This document shows positions 43,415 through 47,317 of a stretch of DNA of 64,000 nucleotides, in pieces. Each line of letters opens with the position of its first letter. Position 1 is the stretch's first letter. This DNA comes from TPA_inf: Saccharomyces (taxonomy: Eukaryota): the NCBI GenBank assembly GCA_000146045.2, contig BK006936.2, positions 608,001 to 672,000 on the forward strand, given 5' to 3'. The notes beneath the pieces were generated by a model that saw only the letters and a list, made by a program, of their open reading frames with translations, was not told the origin of the DNA and did no database searches. Position numbers and translations under genes: made by a program.

Positions 43415-44998
43415 ATGGCTTCTACTTCGAACACGTTCCCTCCAAGCCAAAGCAATTCTTCCAACAACCTTCCAACTTCTAGACATGCATCCATTGTGGA
43501 GATGCTGTCTACTCCGCCATTGCTGCCCCACGTTCAAGTGAACGATACAGACGACAAGGAACAACCAGAAGAGTCCACGCCGCCAACAGCAACAGCGGCA
43601 GCGCCTGGTCCAGGTTGTGCTGCTACACCCGCCCCCTTGCGCGATGAAAAGCCTCAATTCAAACTATCAGCTGTTCCTATGACCCAGACGCCATCGCAGT
43701 GTCTGTCATGTGTGCACGCCCAAAAATGGCAACACATACCGTTGTCGCAATTGATCGAACAGAATAAGCTTATTTTTGTTCCAGGTTCCATATCGGTAGA
43801 GGAGGCATTCAACACTTTGATCAAGTATCATCTAAACTCTATTCCCGTGGAATCTTTCCCCGGCGACATGAACTGTTTTACTTTCGACTACAATGACCTT
43901 AATTCGTACCTTTTGCTGGTTTTGAATAAAATCACCGTCAGCAACAAACAGCTTACTGCAGATTGCCAGAATGGAAAACCCGTACCAGTGGGCGAAATGG
44001 TGAAACTAACTCCTAAGAATCCGTTCTATAAGCTGCCGGAGAATGAGAGTTTGTCCACGGTGATGGGGATTCTCGGTTCGGGTGTCCATCGTGTAGCGAT
44101 AACAAACGAAGAGATGACCAAAGTTAAAGGTATTTTGTCCCAACGTCGTTTGATAAAGTATCTTTGGGACAACGCTAGATCTTTTACAAGCTTAGAACCT
44201 CTATTAAACTCCTCATTACAAGATTTGCACATCGGTGTTCTCAATATTCAATCTAAGCCAACTTCAAGACAATCCCGTGTCATCTCTATTCAAGGCGAGG
44301 AGCCCTTAATCATGGGCCTTTATAAAATGCATGTGGAAAGAATTTCTTCCATTGCAGTCATCGACAAACAAGGTAATTTGCTAGGTAACATATCGGTAAC
44401 GGACGTAAAACATGTCACAAGAACCTCCCAATACCCCTTACTACATAAGACATGTCGCCATTTCATTTCTGTCATTTTAAACTCCAGAGGATTAGAAACG
44501 GGTAAAGATTCTTTCCCCATTTTTCACGTATACCCCAGTAGTTCACTAGCAAGGACTCTTGCCAAGTTAGTTGCTACAAAGTCTCATAGACTATGGATCG
44601 TACAACCGCCGGAGTCGTCAACCTCGGCGTCATCCACAAATTTAACAGCTGCTAATACTGCAGCCAATGCAGTTTCTGCCACCGCTCAATCGTCTGCTAA
44701 TGGTGCGACTCCAATGTCAAAGTCATCCTCTTCAACATCCCTCAACTCCCACTCTCCGTTGATGACAGCAATGGAAGACCCACCATCCCCACGTTCTTCG
44801 GCCATCGCGATCCCACCACCAAGTCCCGCTTCCTCAACAAACACACCAAACCTATTCGAAAAGGAATATAGAACGGGTAAGTTGATCGGTGTGGTCTCAT
44901 TGACAGACATCATCAACTTATTAGCAAGGAAACAAACAGGGAATAAAGAAGTGGATCCGCAATCCGCAAGAAGACAGAGAGGCAGTATCGCCATGTGA
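43415..44998 (+). CDS. SDS24: CBS-domain protein (527 aa), Sds23/Sds24 family
   Basis: The ORF is 527 aa. It has an S/A/P-rich N-terminus and tandem CBS-like segments (IPVES..., HRVAITNEEM..., SIAVIDKQGNLLGNISVTDV). Confidence 0.82.
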   Translation: MASTSNTFPPSQSNSSNNLPTSRHASIVEMLSTPPLLPHVQVNDTDDKEQPEESTPPTATAAAPGPGCAATPAPLRDEKPQFKLSAVPMTQTPSQCLSCVHAQKWQHIPLSQLIEQNKLIFVPGSISVEEAFNTLIKYHLNSIPVESFPGDMNCFTFDYNDLNSYLLLVLNKITVSNKQLTADCQNGKPVPVGEMVKLTPKNPFYKLPENESLSTVMGILGSGVHRVAITNEEMTKVKGILSQRRLIKYLWDNARSFTSLEPLLNSSLQDLHIGVLNIQSKPTSRQSRVISIQGEEPLIMGLYKMHVERISSIAVIDKQGNLLGNISVTDVKHVTRTSQYPLLHKTCRHFISVILNSRGLETGKDSFPIFHVYPSSSLARTLAKLVATKSHRLWIVQPPESSTSASSTNLTAANTAANAVSATAQSSANGATPMSKSSSSTSLNSHSPLMTAMEDPPSPRSSAIAIPPPSPASSTNTPNLFEKEYRTGKLIGVVSLTDIINLLARKQTGNKEVDPQSARRQRGSIAM

Positions 44999-45355
44999 GG
45001 CTTGCAGCGTTGTCTTTTCCCGCTGTTTCCCTCTCCCTCAAAAAAAAAAATCTTTTACAATGACTAAAAGAAAATATTGTTCATTTATATGGTTTTAAGT
45101 ATTTTGTAGACATTTAAGCGTATATACTTGTTCTGAAAACATTTATATATTCTATTTTGTATATTCAACTTATTAAACTCTGACTTTTGCTATTGTCGCG
45201 TATATGTATATCTTTTTTTCTTGTCGTGGAAAATTAAAGCAAAATATGTCAGGCGAATGTACACACAATGCAGAAACTGATGCGGTTAATTTTGCATTCT
45301 GAAACGATTTAAACGAACAGCATTAACCTCCACGACCATATTCAAACGATTGGAA

Positions 45356-47317
45356 ATGGACCAAAAAGGTATGTTCTGGCTTTATTTTCAATTATCCGCC
45401 CTTCGTTAGGGGTGTTTTAGATCATTTTGATTAACAATTCTATTTATGATAGCAATTGTCCTTGATAACTCTAAAAGTGGTAGTAAACAGACAAAATCGA
45501 GTGGCAAAATGCAAACGCAAACAGATACTAATGCTGAAGTTCTAAACACCGATAACAGTATCAAAAAAGAAACAGGAAGTGATTCTGAGGATCTTTTCAA
45601 TAAATTTTCAAACAAAAAAACGAACAGGAAAATACCCAACATCGCTGAAGAATTAGCGAAAAACAGAAACTACGTAAAAGGTGCGTCTCCGTCTCCCATT
45701 ATAATTTCTGGTTCCTCTTCAACTTCTCCATCAGGACCCTCTTCCTCCAGTACAAACCCGATGGGGATACCAACGAATCGATTTAATAAAAATACTGTAG
45801 AACTATATCAGCATTCACCATCCCCCGTGATGACTACTAACAAGACTGATACAGAGGAAAAGAGACAAAACAATAGAAATATGGATAATAAAAACACCCC
45901 AGAAAGAGGATCTTCTTCCTTTGCTGCTAAGCAACTAAAAATATCATCCTTGTTAACTATATCCTCCAATGAAGATAGTAAAACTTTGCATATAAACGAT
46001 ACTAATGGCAACAAAAATAGTAATGCCGCCAGTAATAATATTCCATCGGCTTATGCAGAACTCCATACAGAGGGAAATAGCATTGAATCACTAATAAAAC
46101 CCCCAAGCTCTCCCAGAAATAAATCTCTAACGCCCAAAGTTATCTTGCCAACACAGAATATGGATGGTACAATTGCAAAGGATCCTCATTTAGGTGATAA
46201 TACACCAGGAATACTCATAGCAAAAACTAGTTCTCCCGTAAATTTGGATGTTGAAAGCACTGCACAATCTCTGGGAAAATTTAACAAGTCCACTAATTCT
46301 TTGAAAGCTGCCCTAACAAAAGCTCCTGCAGAAAAGGTCTCTTTAAAACGTAGCATTAGTTCAGTTACAAACAGTGATTCTAATATTAGCTCCAGCAAAA
46401 AGCCTACGTCTGAAAAAGCTAAAAAATCAAGTTCAGCATCAGCAATACTACCAAAGCCAACAACGACCAAGACATCAAAAAAAGCTGCTAGCAATAGTAG
46501 CGATTCTACCAGAAAAAAAAACGCCTCGAACAAGACTACATCAGCCATAAAGAAAGAGTCAAATGCCGGCTCCAAATTGAACACTGTTAAGAAGGAAAAT
46601 AGCTCTTTATCTTCTATCAAAGCCACTGAGAAAGAAAAAGATAAAGGTGGAAATAGCACGGAAGCAAAAAACTCTACCAGCAACGTTAGAAAGGAACCAA
46701 CTGCAAAATCCCCAAAAAGGTTAGTAGCCGCACCGACAGTCAGTCCACCAAAAATTCTACAAACGGCAGAAACCAAAGCAAAGGAACCCTCGATATTGAT
46801 TGACGTTCCATTGTATCAAGCTGATACAAACGACTACCTAGACGAAAACGGTCAGGTTATTTTTAATTTATCAACTTTAATAAAAGAGAAGTATCACCCG
46901 AAAAGTAAAGAACTAGCACAACTTAAAGACTCTAAAAGAAATTTATTAATGCAATTATCCGATCATTCTAACGGCTCACTAGAAAAGGAAAAAGATGAAG
47001 AAGGAGATGTAATAGAACTTGATGATGATGAGGATATGGAAGAAGATGAAGGGGAAATAGATACAGAAACTAATACTGTAACTACCACCATCTCTCCGAA
47101 GAAGAAGTCGCATCCTATGAAAGGTAAAAATTTGATTGGTAAATATGACGTTGAAGATCCGTTCATTGATGATTCGGAGTTATTGTGGGAGGAACAGCGT
47201 GCTGCCACCAAGGACGGTTTTTTTGTTTACTTTGGTCCATTAATCGAAAAAGGTCACTATGCAAGTTTGGAGCGTGCAAATGGTACCATGAAAAGAGGTG
47301 GTGTTAAAAATAAATAA
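45356..47317 (+). CDS. HPC2: HIR histone-regulation complex subunit Hpc2 (625 aa after splicing): join(45356..45368,45453..47317); Ser/Lys-rich, C-terminal HRD/HUN domain
   Basis: The 13-nt exon 1 (ATGGACCAAAAAG) is followed by a GTATGT 5' splice site. Exon 2 starts at 45453, giving MDQK|AIVLDNSKSG.... The C-terminal conserved block is KYDVEDPFIDDSELLWEEQRAATKDGFFVYFGPL. I recall YBR215W as an intron-containing 625-aa gene. Confidence 0.75.
45369..45452 (+). other. Spliceosomal intron of HPC2 (84 nt): 5'SS GTATGT, candidate branch point GATTAAC (branch A at 45434), 3'SS TAG at 45450-45452
   Basis: Read directly. Splicing restores the reading frame from the upstream ATG at 45356 into the long ORF. 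Confidence 0.65.

What the first reader, a model, noticed from the sequence alone, without database searches (positions are those of the whole stretch)
45356..45460. HPC2 has a 13-nt first exon and an 84-nt intron that the ORF track misses
The long ORF reported by the track starts at an internal ATG (MIAIV...). Ninety bases upstream lies ATGGACCAAAAAG followed immediately by a consensus yeast 5' splice site GTATGT. A TAG acceptor at 45450-45452 restores the frame exactly (MDQK|AIVLD...). Micro-exon 5' ends like this are easy to miss in ab initio annotation. The best branch-point candidate (GATTAAC, 17 nt from the acceptor) deviates from TACTAAC at two positions. If that branch point is used, it would make this a weakly spliced and potentially regulated intron.
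Basis: partly seen in the sequence, partly recalled or inferred. Interest (0 to 1): 0.5.

Follow-up and report, generated by a model that had tools for sequence, protein, structure and literature searches.

The report
Known 5' micro-exon intron of HPC2
The yeast histone-regulator gene HPC2 really does begin with a 13-base first exon followed by an 84-base intron with a weak branch site, but this has been in the reference annotation for years and the intron is already used in the lab as an example of inefficient splicing, so the finding is correct and ordinary.

Summary
The first exon is ATGGACCAAAAAG (45356-45368). The intron runs from 45369 to 45452 (84 nt: GTATGT ... GATTAAC ... TAG). Splicing gives a 625-aa protein, MDQK|AIVLDN... 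The window is S. cerevisiae chrII 608001-672000, and the intron equals the canonical YBR215W intron chrII 653369-653452. The exact 625-aa product is the S288C and UniProt Hpc2p. The 623-aa MIAIV form matches only the 1992 and 1994 entries. Published work lists GATTAAC as the HPC2 branch site (S. paradoxus has TACTAAC). It shows spliced and unspliced RT-PCR products, about 85% or "intermediate" splicing efficiency, and dependence on the Prp40 WW domains and on U2 pseudouridines. My own comparison of 11 orthologous loci finds the phase-1 micro-exon (13 nt in ten loci, 19 nt in A. aceris), a GTATG[T/C] donor and a 72-84 nt intron in 10 of them, from Saccharomyces to Zygosaccharomyces, Naumovozyma and Eremothecium. 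In each of the 10 a branch box lies 11-24 nt before an in-frame acceptor. The eleventh locus is compatible only through a weak branch box. The branch-box C-to-T change and the intronic ATG are S. cerevisiae-specific within the genus. There is no evidence of physiological regulation: no Mer1 enhancer, no unusual fold, no Rfam hit. Verdict: real, correctly interpreted, already known, low interest.

The parts
45356..45368 (+). HPC2 exon 1 (micro-exon): ATGGACCAAAAAG. It encodes M-D-Q-K plus the first base of codon 5, so the intron is in phase 1.
   Evidence: Mean pairwise identity is 0.90, with 10 of 13 columns invariant, across six Saccharomyces genomes, against 0.50 for the 5' flank. A 13-nt exon 1 is also found in L006, L007, Z. 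parabailii, N. dairenensis and L011.
45369..45452 (+). Spliceosomal intron, 84 nt, GT-AG. It equals chrII 653369-653452, the canonical YBR215W intron.
   Evidence: window offset 608000. Orthologous introns are 72-84 nt. Spliced and unspliced RT-PCR products are published.
45369..45374 (+). 5' splice site GTATGT (consensus).
   Evidence: Invariant in six Saccharomyces genomes. It is GTATGT or GTATGC in all 11 other loci.
45429..45435 (+). Branch-site box GATTAAC (inferred branch A at 45434, 18 nt from the 3' G). It deviates from TACTAAC at positions 1 and 3.
   Evidence: Listed as the HPC2 branch point in PMC2839277 and in two preprints. It aligns column for column with TACTAAC, AACTAAC or GACTAAC in the other five Saccharomyces genomes, each at the same 18-nt distance. 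The T at position 3 is unique to S. cerevisiae.
45450..45452 (+). 3' splice site TAG, the first YAG downstream of the branch box.
   Evidence: Invariant in six Saccharomyces genomes.
45453..47317 (+). HPC2 exon 2 including the stop codon. The complete product is 625 aa and carries the HUN/Hpc2-related domain (PF08729).
   Evidence: The exact sequence is named Hpc2p [S. cerevisiae S288C] and Histone promoter control protein 2.
45446..45448 (+). Intronic in-frame ATG, 7 nt before exon 2. It is the start of the mechanical ORF (MIAIV..., 623 aa) and of the superseded 1992 and 1994 protein entries.
   Evidence: AAA34684.1, CAA85179.1. It is absent from the other five Saccharomyces genomes.
45356..45409 (+). 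Reading frame of the unspliced transcript from the true start codon: 17 codons (MDQKGMFWLYFQLSALR), then TAG. A retained intron is therefore non-productive from this ATG.
   Evidence: In 10 of the 11 other loci the frame also hits a stop within the first 60 codons of the unspliced transcript; L006 is the exception and reads through.
45522..45524 (+). Minor alternative 3' splice site CAG (+72 nt, in frame). Using it would delete 24 residues, AIVLDN...QTQT.
   Evidence: PMC4607428 Table 4 and its supplement give chrII 653369-653524, 16 supporting reads. Sequence read. A second site ending at 45539 (+87) has a single read.

Best explanation
This is the annotated spliceosomal intron of HPC2/YBR215W, which encodes a subunit of the HIR histone chaperone complex. 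Transcription starts upstream of 45334. Translation starts at ATG 45356. The 13-nt first exon is joined to 45453 by removal of an 84-nt GT-AG intron. The signals used are a consensus GUAUGU donor, the sub-optimal branch site GAUUAAC (branch A at 45434), and the first downstream YAG.

From established knowledge of branch-site recognition, the two deviations should weaken the site. G at position 1 gives a mismatch and U at position 3 gives a G-U wobble against the U2 GUAGUA box. Recognition by BBP/Msl5 should also be weaker. A measurable fraction of transcripts therefore stays unspliced, and splicing is unusually sensitive to auxiliary factors.

Shown here: the anatomy, the frame, the conservation, and identity with the reference protein. 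Shown in the literature: spliced and unspliced RNAs, splicing efficiency, and factor dependence. Inferred: the exact branch nucleotide, and any biological use of the inefficiency.
For: 1. Exact splice arithmetic and a 625-aa product.

2. The coordinates equal the canonical intron chrII 653369-653452 implied by PMC4607428.

3. The exact spliced product is Hpc2p of S288C and UniProt. The unspliced-ORF product matches only the old entries AAA34684.1 and CAA85179.1.

4. PMC2839277 lists the HPC2 branch point as GATTAAC, with CATTAAC as a variant allele and TACTAAC in S. paradoxus. That study quantified spliced and unspliced RT-PCR products in 8 strains.

5. RT-PCR primers from 10.64898/2026.08.09.743773 map to 45334-45353 and 45635-45654. 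They give pre-mRNA and mRNA bands with 'intermediate' efficiency.

6. 10.1101/2025.10.29.685309 reports HPC2 as about 85% spliced. Splicing and the ChIP signals for BBP and U1 are reduced in prp40-deltaN, and a GAUUAAC ACT1-CUP1 reporter is functional.

7. Conservation among six Saccharomyces genomes, as mean pairwise identity:
- exon 1: 0.90
- 5' splice site: 1.0
- branch box: 0.85
- 3' splice site: 1.0
- intron interior: 0.52
- 5' flank: 0.50

8. Ten of the 11 orthologous loci give an in-frame full-length spliced model with a phase-1 exon 1 of 13 nt (19 nt in A. aceris) and a 72-84 nt intron.

9. Only 1 of 21 long open frames in the window shows the pattern, and about 2% of shuffles do.
Against: - I could not find direct mapping of the branch nucleotide for this intron. 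The Branch-seq paper PMC5029451 does not mention HPC2 in its text, and its supplements are not held.
- The efficiency figures come from preprints and from a figure I could not view.
- The single-genome pattern alone has a chance rate of about 2%.
- Locus L011 lacks a standard branch box. Only AACTGAC is available there, so conservation is not demonstrated in every lineage.
Confidence: 0.97

Rival explanations
1. There is no functional intron. The protein starts at ATG 45446 (MIAIV..., 623 aa), as in the original 1992 and 1994 annotations, and the upstream signals are coincidental.
For: The ORF exists and was once the deposited product (AAA34684.1, CAA85179.1). Shuffled flanks produce an equivalent pattern in about 2% of trials.
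Against: - ATG 45446 is absent from all five other Saccharomyces genomes, while exon 1 and all three splice signals are conserved.
- The same architecture recurs in distant genera.
- Spliced mRNA is the major RT-PCR product in published work.
- Current reference proteins use MDQK.
Confidence: 0.01
2. The gene has two outputs. Besides the spliced mRNA, the roughly 15% of transcripts that retain the intron are translated from the S. cerevisiae-specific intronic ATG 45446. This would happen by reinitiation after the 17-codon upstream frame. The product would be an Hpc2 differing only at the extreme N-terminus (MI instead of MDQK), which would buffer the weakened branch site.
For: - The unspliced frame from ATG 45356 stops at 45407-45409, and ATG 45446 lies 36 nt further on in the exon-2 frame.
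- Within the genus, both the branch-box C-to-T change and this ATG are unique to S. cerevisiae.
- Unspliced RNA is detectable.
Against: - There is no protein-level evidence.
- ATG 45356 has A at position -3, and a second in-frame ATG lies at 45371, so leaky scanning should be poor.
- From general knowledge, yeast pre-mRNAs are largely retained in the nucleus or degraded by NMD, and reinitiation after most yeast upstream ORFs is inefficient.
- The co-occurrence of two lineage-specific substitutions may be chance.
Confidence: 0.05
3. The intron is a physiologically regulated switch, for example meiosis- or stress-specific splicing that sets the dose of the HIR complex, rather than merely an inefficient intron.
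For: - The branch site is sub-optimal.
- Efficiency differs between natural strains.
- Efficiency responds to Prp40 WW deletion and to U2 pseudouridylation pattern.
- The intron has been retained across Saccharomycetaceae.
Against: - No Mer1 enhancer (AYACCCUY) lies in or near the intron; the nearest match is almost 10 kb away.
- The fold of 45356-45470 is no more stable than shuffles, z = 0.04.
- Nothing in 45000-45700 reaches an Rfam gathering score; the only match at E up to 1 is a sub-threshold GcvB hit on the opposite strand, downstream of the intron.
- The intron interior is no better conserved than the 5' flank, 0.52 against 0.50.
- The weak branch box is specific to S. cerevisiae. Relatives have strong boxes, so the weakness is not an ancestral regulatory feature.
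- HPC2 splicing was unaffected by Rat1 loss.
Confidence: 0.07
4. The alternative acceptor CAG at 45522-45524 (+72) yields a biologically meaningful isoform that lacks residues 5-28.
For: 16 split reads are reported, and the event preserves the frame.
Against: - Support is low.
- From general knowledge, the spliceosome uses distal AGs at low frequency as splicing noise.
- The deleted segment includes the conserved hydrophobic-acidic N-terminal motif.
- I did not test whether this CAG is conserved.
Confidence: 0.04

Closest known systems
The annotated intron of S. cerevisiae HPC2/YBR215W (reference annotation and Ares Yeast Intron Database; branch site GAUUAAC)
   Same: It is identical. The coordinates are the same after the 608000 offset. 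The splice signals are the same. The 625-aa product is the same to the residue.
   Different: Nothing. The finding rediscovers this annotation from raw sequence.
Other S. cerevisiae non-ribosomal-protein introns with non-canonical branch sites and reduced efficiency (YPR153W, PTC7 with UGCUAAU, SRB2 with UGCUAAC)
   Same: They share a consensus or near-consensus donor with a deviant branch box, measurable unspliced RNA, and sensitivity to auxiliary factors such as the Prp40 WW domains and U2 pseudouridines.
   Different: HPC2 is intermediate: about 85% spliced, better than PTC7 and worse than SRB2. Its deviation is a recent, species-specific C-to-T change at box position 3, on top of a variable position 1.
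5'-proximal introns that follow very short first exons, as is typical of budding-yeast genes
   Same: The intron sits a few codons after the start codon. Mechanical ORF finders and some annotation pipelines miss the true start.
   Different: The HPC2 intron is short (84 nt), with a short branch-to-acceptor distance (18 nt). It also contains an in-frame ATG, which makes the unspliced ORF look complete.
Mer1-activated meiotic introns (AMA1, MER2, MER3, SPO22)
   Same: They are also sub-optimally spliced introns in non-ribosomal-protein genes.
   Different: No Mer1 enhancer AYACCCUY lies in or near the HPC2 intron, and the donor here is consensus. HPC2 is not a member of this group.

Membership tests
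Budding-yeast U2-type spliceosomal intron | 5' splice site matching GUAUGU | tested here: met
   GTATGT lies at 45369-45374 and is invariant in six Saccharomyces genomes.
Budding-yeast U2-type spliceosomal intron | Branch-site box of UACUAAC type with the branch adenosine at position 6 | tested here: met
   GATTAAC lies at 45429-45435. It keeps positions 2 and 4-7, including the branch A, and deviates at positions 1 and 3. It aligns with TACTAAC, AACTAAC or GACTAAC in orthologues. GAUUAAC supports splicing in ACT1-CUP1 reporters.
Budding-yeast U2-type spliceosomal intron | YAG acceptor, the first one at a suitable distance downstream of the branch point | tested here: met
   TAG lies at 45450-45452, 18 nt from the branch A, and is the first YAG after the box. 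The same 18-nt spacing is seen in five other Saccharomyces genomes.
Budding-yeast U2-type spliceosomal intron | Removal restores one long reading frame, and the unspliced frame is interrupted | tested here: met
   The spliced CDS is 1878 nt (625 aa). The unspliced frame stops after 17 codons.
Budding-yeast U2-type spliceosomal intron | The spliced junction is observed in RNA | not testable with these tools
   No RNA data can be analysed here. Published RT-PCR shows mRNA and pre-mRNA bands, with primers that I mapped to 45334-45353 and 45635-45654. RNA-seq treats 653452 as the canonical 3' end.
Budding-yeast U2-type spliceosomal intron | The branch nucleotide is mapped experimentally | not testable with these tools
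   No lariat data for HPC2 were accessible. The position is inferred from sequence and alignment.
Reference gene model of YBR215W/HPC2 | Same intron coordinates on chromosome II | tested here: met
   The alternative intron 653369-653524 is listed as +72 from the canonical 3' site. The canonical intron is therefore 653369-653452, which is window 45369-45452.
Reference gene model of YBR215W/HPC2 | Identical protein product | tested here: met
   An exact-sequence look-up returns Hpc2p [S. cerevisiae S288C] and UniProt Histone promoter control protein 2.
Mer1-dependent regulated introns | Intronic Mer1 enhancer AYACCCUY near the 5' splice site | tested here: not met
   There are five matches in the window, all on the minus strand and none within 9 kb of the intron. 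Their number is no more than chance gives.
Introns hosting a structured RNA (snoRNA or autoregulatory fold) | A match to a known RNA family, or folding energy beyond shuffles | tested here: not met
   Nothing in 45000-45700 reaches an Rfam gathering score; the only match at E up to 1 is GcvB at 15.9 bits (gathering 42) on the minus strand at 45540-45582, outside the intron. The folding z-score is 0.04.

The most novel reading that the evidence does not exclude
Within the genus, only S. cerevisiae carries both a weakened branch box (C-to-T at position 3) and a new in-frame ATG 7 nt before the acceptor. Together these could let intron-retaining HPC2 transcripts still produce a nearly full-length Hpc2 (MI-AIVLDN...). 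Alternatively, they could make HIR-complex dosage depend on spliceosome availability. Either would be a recently evolved link between splicing capacity and control of histone genes.
Probability: 0.05. Interest if true: 0.35.

Novelty: already known. Interest (0 to 1): 0.07.

Why it matters
It matters little beyond quality control. It shows that a reader working from raw sequence can recover a true micro-exon gene model that a prokaryote-style ORF track gets wrong.

The small added value from this check is comparative.
- The phase-1 micro-exon (13 nt in most lineages, 19 nt in A. aceris) is old, being shared with Zygosaccharomyces, Naumovozyma and Eremothecium.
- The weak branch site is a recent S. 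cerevisiae-specific change.
- Several public orthologue models still start at internal methionines and could be corrected: S. eubayanus SEUBUCD646_0D04220, N. dairenensis NDAI_0F01810 and S. cerevisiae AWRI796 Hpc2p.

Tried and rejected
- My first chance-control script had a faulty frame filter and found nothing, not even HPC2. It was rewritten to test by translation.
- I looked for lariat or branch-point mapping of HPC2 in the Branch-seq paper PMC5029451. The gene is not named in the text and no supplements are held.
- I tested for a hidden regulatory element and found none. No Mer1 enhancer lies in or near the intron, nothing reaches an Rfam gathering score in 45000-45700 (only a sub-threshold GcvB match at 45540-45582, minus strand), and there is no unusual RNA fold.
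- I considered the antisense 78-aa ORF at 45406-45642. I dismissed it without a specific test as a mechanical by-product lying inside the conserved HPC2 coding region.
- I considered TTTTGAT (45425) as an alternative branch box. I rejected it because it lacks the UAAC core and is not the aligned conserved block.
- The bacterial, phage and plasmid collections and the structure tools are irrelevant to this question and were not used.

Full report
**1. Observation**

The sequence is exactly as described.
- ATG 45356 opens a 13-nt exon, ATGGACCAAAAAG.
- GTATGT follows at 45369-45374.
- The only xAYTAAC-type box in the interval is GATTAAC at 45429-45435.
- TAG at 45450-45452 is the first YAG after that box.
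- Joining 45368 to 45453 gives an 1878-nt CDS and a 625-aa protein, MDQK|AIVLDN...

The mechanical ORF list reports 45446-47317, which is 623 aa starting MIAIV. That start is an ATG inside the intron, 7 nt before exon 2 and 90 nt after the true start. Read without splicing, the frame from ATG 45356 ends after 17 codons at TAG 45407.

As a chance control I searched for the full pattern: an upstream ATG, a stop-free exon of at most 60 nt, GTATGT, a branch box, and the first YAG joining in frame. Only 1 of the 21 open frames of at least 300 codons in the window has it, and that one is HPC2. Shuffling the 454 nt upstream of exon 2 produced it in 412 of 20000 trials (about 2%). The single sequence is suggestive but does not settle the matter.

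**2. Identity of the locus**

The gene order is MET8-like, then the CBS-domain gene, then HPC2, then YBP1. The protein matches S. cerevisiae Hpc2p at 99-100% identity.

Schreiber et al. 2015 (PMC4607428) list an alternative HPC2 intron at chrII 653369-653524, which is +72 from the canonical 3' site. This fixes the window as chrII 608001-672000. It also fixes the canonical annotated intron at 653369-653452, which is window 45369-45452 to the base.

An exact-sequence look-up shows two things. The 625-aa spliced product is 'Hpc2p [Saccharomyces cerevisiae S288C]' and UniProt 'Histone promoter control protein 2'. The 623-aa MIAIV product matches only AAA34684.1 and CAA85179.1. From my own knowledge, not from a tool result, those are the original gene and chromosome II submissions.

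**3. RNA-level evidence in the literature**

- *Skelly et al. 2009* (PMC2839277). HPC2 is tabulated with branch point GATTAAC in the reference, CATTAAC as a natural variant, and TACTAAC in S. paradoxus. Spliced and unspliced RT-PCR products were quantified in eight strains. By elimination from the figure legend, YBR215W is among the introns with significant between-strain variation.
- *Prp40 preprint* (10.1101/2025.10.29.685309). HPC2 is treated as a known inefficiently spliced gene (85%) with the non-canonical branch site GAUUAAC. Its splicing falls in prp40-deltaN, and so does co-transcriptional recruitment of BBP and U1. A GAUUAAC ACT1-CUP1 reporter is functional.
- *U2 pseudouridine preprint* (10.64898/2026.08.09.743773). 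It reports 'intermediate' HPC2 splicing efficiency, which varies with the U2 pseudouridylation pattern. Its primers map to 45334-45353 and 45635-45654. The mRNA 5' end is therefore upstream of 45334, and the amplicon spans the intron.
- *Rat1 study* (PMC8191773). HPC2 was used as an intron-containing test gene and showed no Rat1 dependence.

**4. Independent comparative test**

I fetched 11 orthologous loci. All have the YBP1-like gene downstream.

Among six Saccharomyces genomes (alignment A1), conservation is concentrated where a splicing model predicts it.

| Region | Mean pairwise identity |
|---|---|
| Exon 1 | 0.90 |
| 5' splice site | 1.0 |
| Branch box | 0.85 |
| 3' splice site | 1.0 |
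| Intron interior | 0.52 |
| 5' flank | 0.50 |
| Start of exon 2 | 0.70 |

The intron length is 78-84 nt in the six genomes, and the distance from the branch A to the acceptor is 18 nt in all six.

The branch boxes are:
- S. paradoxus: TACTAAC
- L002, S. uvarum, S. eubayanus: AACTAAC
- S. kudriavzevii: GACTAAC
- S. cerevisiae: GATTAAC

The T at position 3 is therefore a derived change specific to S. cerevisiae, while position 1 varies freely. This agrees with the population-genetic estimate that position 1 is weakly constrained. The intronic ATG 45446 is also unique to S. cerevisiae within the genus. The old MIAIV start thus has no evolutionary support.

The architecture persists beyond the genus.

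| Locus | Exon 1 | Donor | Branch box | Spliced N-terminus |
|---|---|---|---|---|
| L006 | ATGCAAGAGGAAG | GTATGT | TACTAAC | MQEEVIEIDG |
| L007 | ATGGAAGAAGAAG | GTATGC | TACTAAC | MEEEVVVIEG |
| Z. parabailii | ATGGAGCAAGAGA | GTATGT | TACTAAT | MEQEIIHQGD |
| N. dairenensis | ATGGATGATGAAA | GTATGC | TACTAAC | MDDEIIIIDD |
| A. aceris | 19 nt | GTATGT | TACTAAC | MIPGREVIVIED |

L011 has the 13-nt exon and GTATGT, but only a weak AACTGAC box, so I leave it unresolved.

Several database proteins show what happens when the micro-exon is missed. P0012 is a read-through of the intron (MQEE-GMY...LLTNE). P0004, P0007, P0020 and P0002 start at internal or intronic methionines.

**5. Mechanism**

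This is an ordinary U2-type yeast intron in phase 1, four codons into the gene. From established knowledge of branch-site recognition (UACUAAC pairing with the U2 GUAGUA box, and binding by BBP/Msl5), G at position 1 and U at position 3 should weaken both interactions. That fits the published efficiency of about 85% and the heightened need for the Prp40-BBP bridge.

Retained-intron transcripts are non-productive from the true ATG, which yields only a 17-codon frame. Whether any are translated from ATG 45446 is unknown and seems unlikely. ATG 45356 has A at -3, a second in-frame ATG lies at 45371, and from general knowledge yeast pre-mRNAs are usually retained or degraded.

I looked for a dedicated regulatory device and found none. 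No Mer1 enhancer lies in or near the intron, nothing reaches an Rfam gathering score, folding is no better than shuffles (z = 0.04), and the intron interior is no more conserved than the 5' flank. The weak branch site is recent, not ancestral. 'Weakly spliced' is therefore supported. 'Regulated' remains speculation.

**6. Verdict**

The feature is already known, both in the reference annotation and as a used model of a non-canonical branch-site intron. Interest is low.

What remains open is minor. The branch nucleotide was not seen mapped directly in the sources available to me. The dual-output idea and the possible N-terminal SUMO-interaction motif are untested.

Noticed in passing
window 45453-45475 (start of exon 2); L003, L004, L005, L006, L007, L009, L010 at the equivalent positions: Exon 2 opens with a conserved run of hydrophobic residues followed by acidic residues or Ser. 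Examples: VIVIEDSKS (S. uvarum, S. eubayanus), PIVIDDSK (S. kudriavzevii), VIVIEDEE (A. aceris), IIIIDDSNDS (N. dairenensis), VIEIDGSE (L006), VVVIEGQDAED (L007), AIVLDNSKS (S. cerevisiae); it is degenerate in S. paradoxus, TTAFNNSKS. It resembles a SUMO-interaction motif. Hpc2 is a verified Siz1/Siz2-dependent SUMO target (PMC3731205). I found no description of such a motif in Hpc2.
   Followed up: partly
L005 (S. eubayanus, exon 1 near 2042), L010 (N. dairenensis, exon 1 near 1351), P0002 (S. cerevisiae AWRI796): Some public protein models of orthologues miss the micro-exon. SEUBUCD646_0D04220 starts at MQPDT, where my model gives MDQKVIVIED (624 aa). NDAI_0F01810 starts at MTAYK, where my model gives MDDEIIIIDDS (555 aa against the deposited 529). 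AWRI796 Hpc2p starts at MIAIV. The Logan and ENA gene calls P0004, P0009 and P0012 are also wrong at the 5' end.
   Followed up: yes
L003 2091-2102 and the equivalent place in L005: S. uvarum and S. eubayanus have two in-frame TAG acceptors 6 nt apart (TTCTTAG|TGATAG|TC). The deposited S. uvarum model (MDQKVIEDSK) uses the distal one. The proximal one sits at the conserved 18-nt distance from the branch A and would give MDQKVIVIEDSK.
   Followed up: partly
window 45522-45524 and 45537-45539: Minor alternative acceptors are reported from RNA-seq. CAG at +72 has 16 reads, is in frame, and would remove residues 5-28. AAG at +87 has 1 read and lies just after a TACTAAT at 45526-45532 inside exon 2.
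   Followed up: partly
L009 (A. aceris), exon 1 at 1501-1519: The Eremothecium orthologue has a 19-nt first exon (MIPGRE) instead of 13 nt, in the same phase. Like S. cerevisiae, it has an in-frame ATG 7 nt before its annotated acceptor.
   Followed up: no
window 45406-45642, minus strand: A 78-aa antisense ORF overlaps the intron and the start of exon 2. I did not test it. It is most likely a mechanical by-product of the ORF listing.
   Followed up: no
window 45031-45051: A C/T-rich stretch followed by an 11-base A run lies immediately after the stop of the upstream CBS-domain gene (ORF 43415-44998), in its presumed 3' untranslated or terminator region.
   Followed up: no
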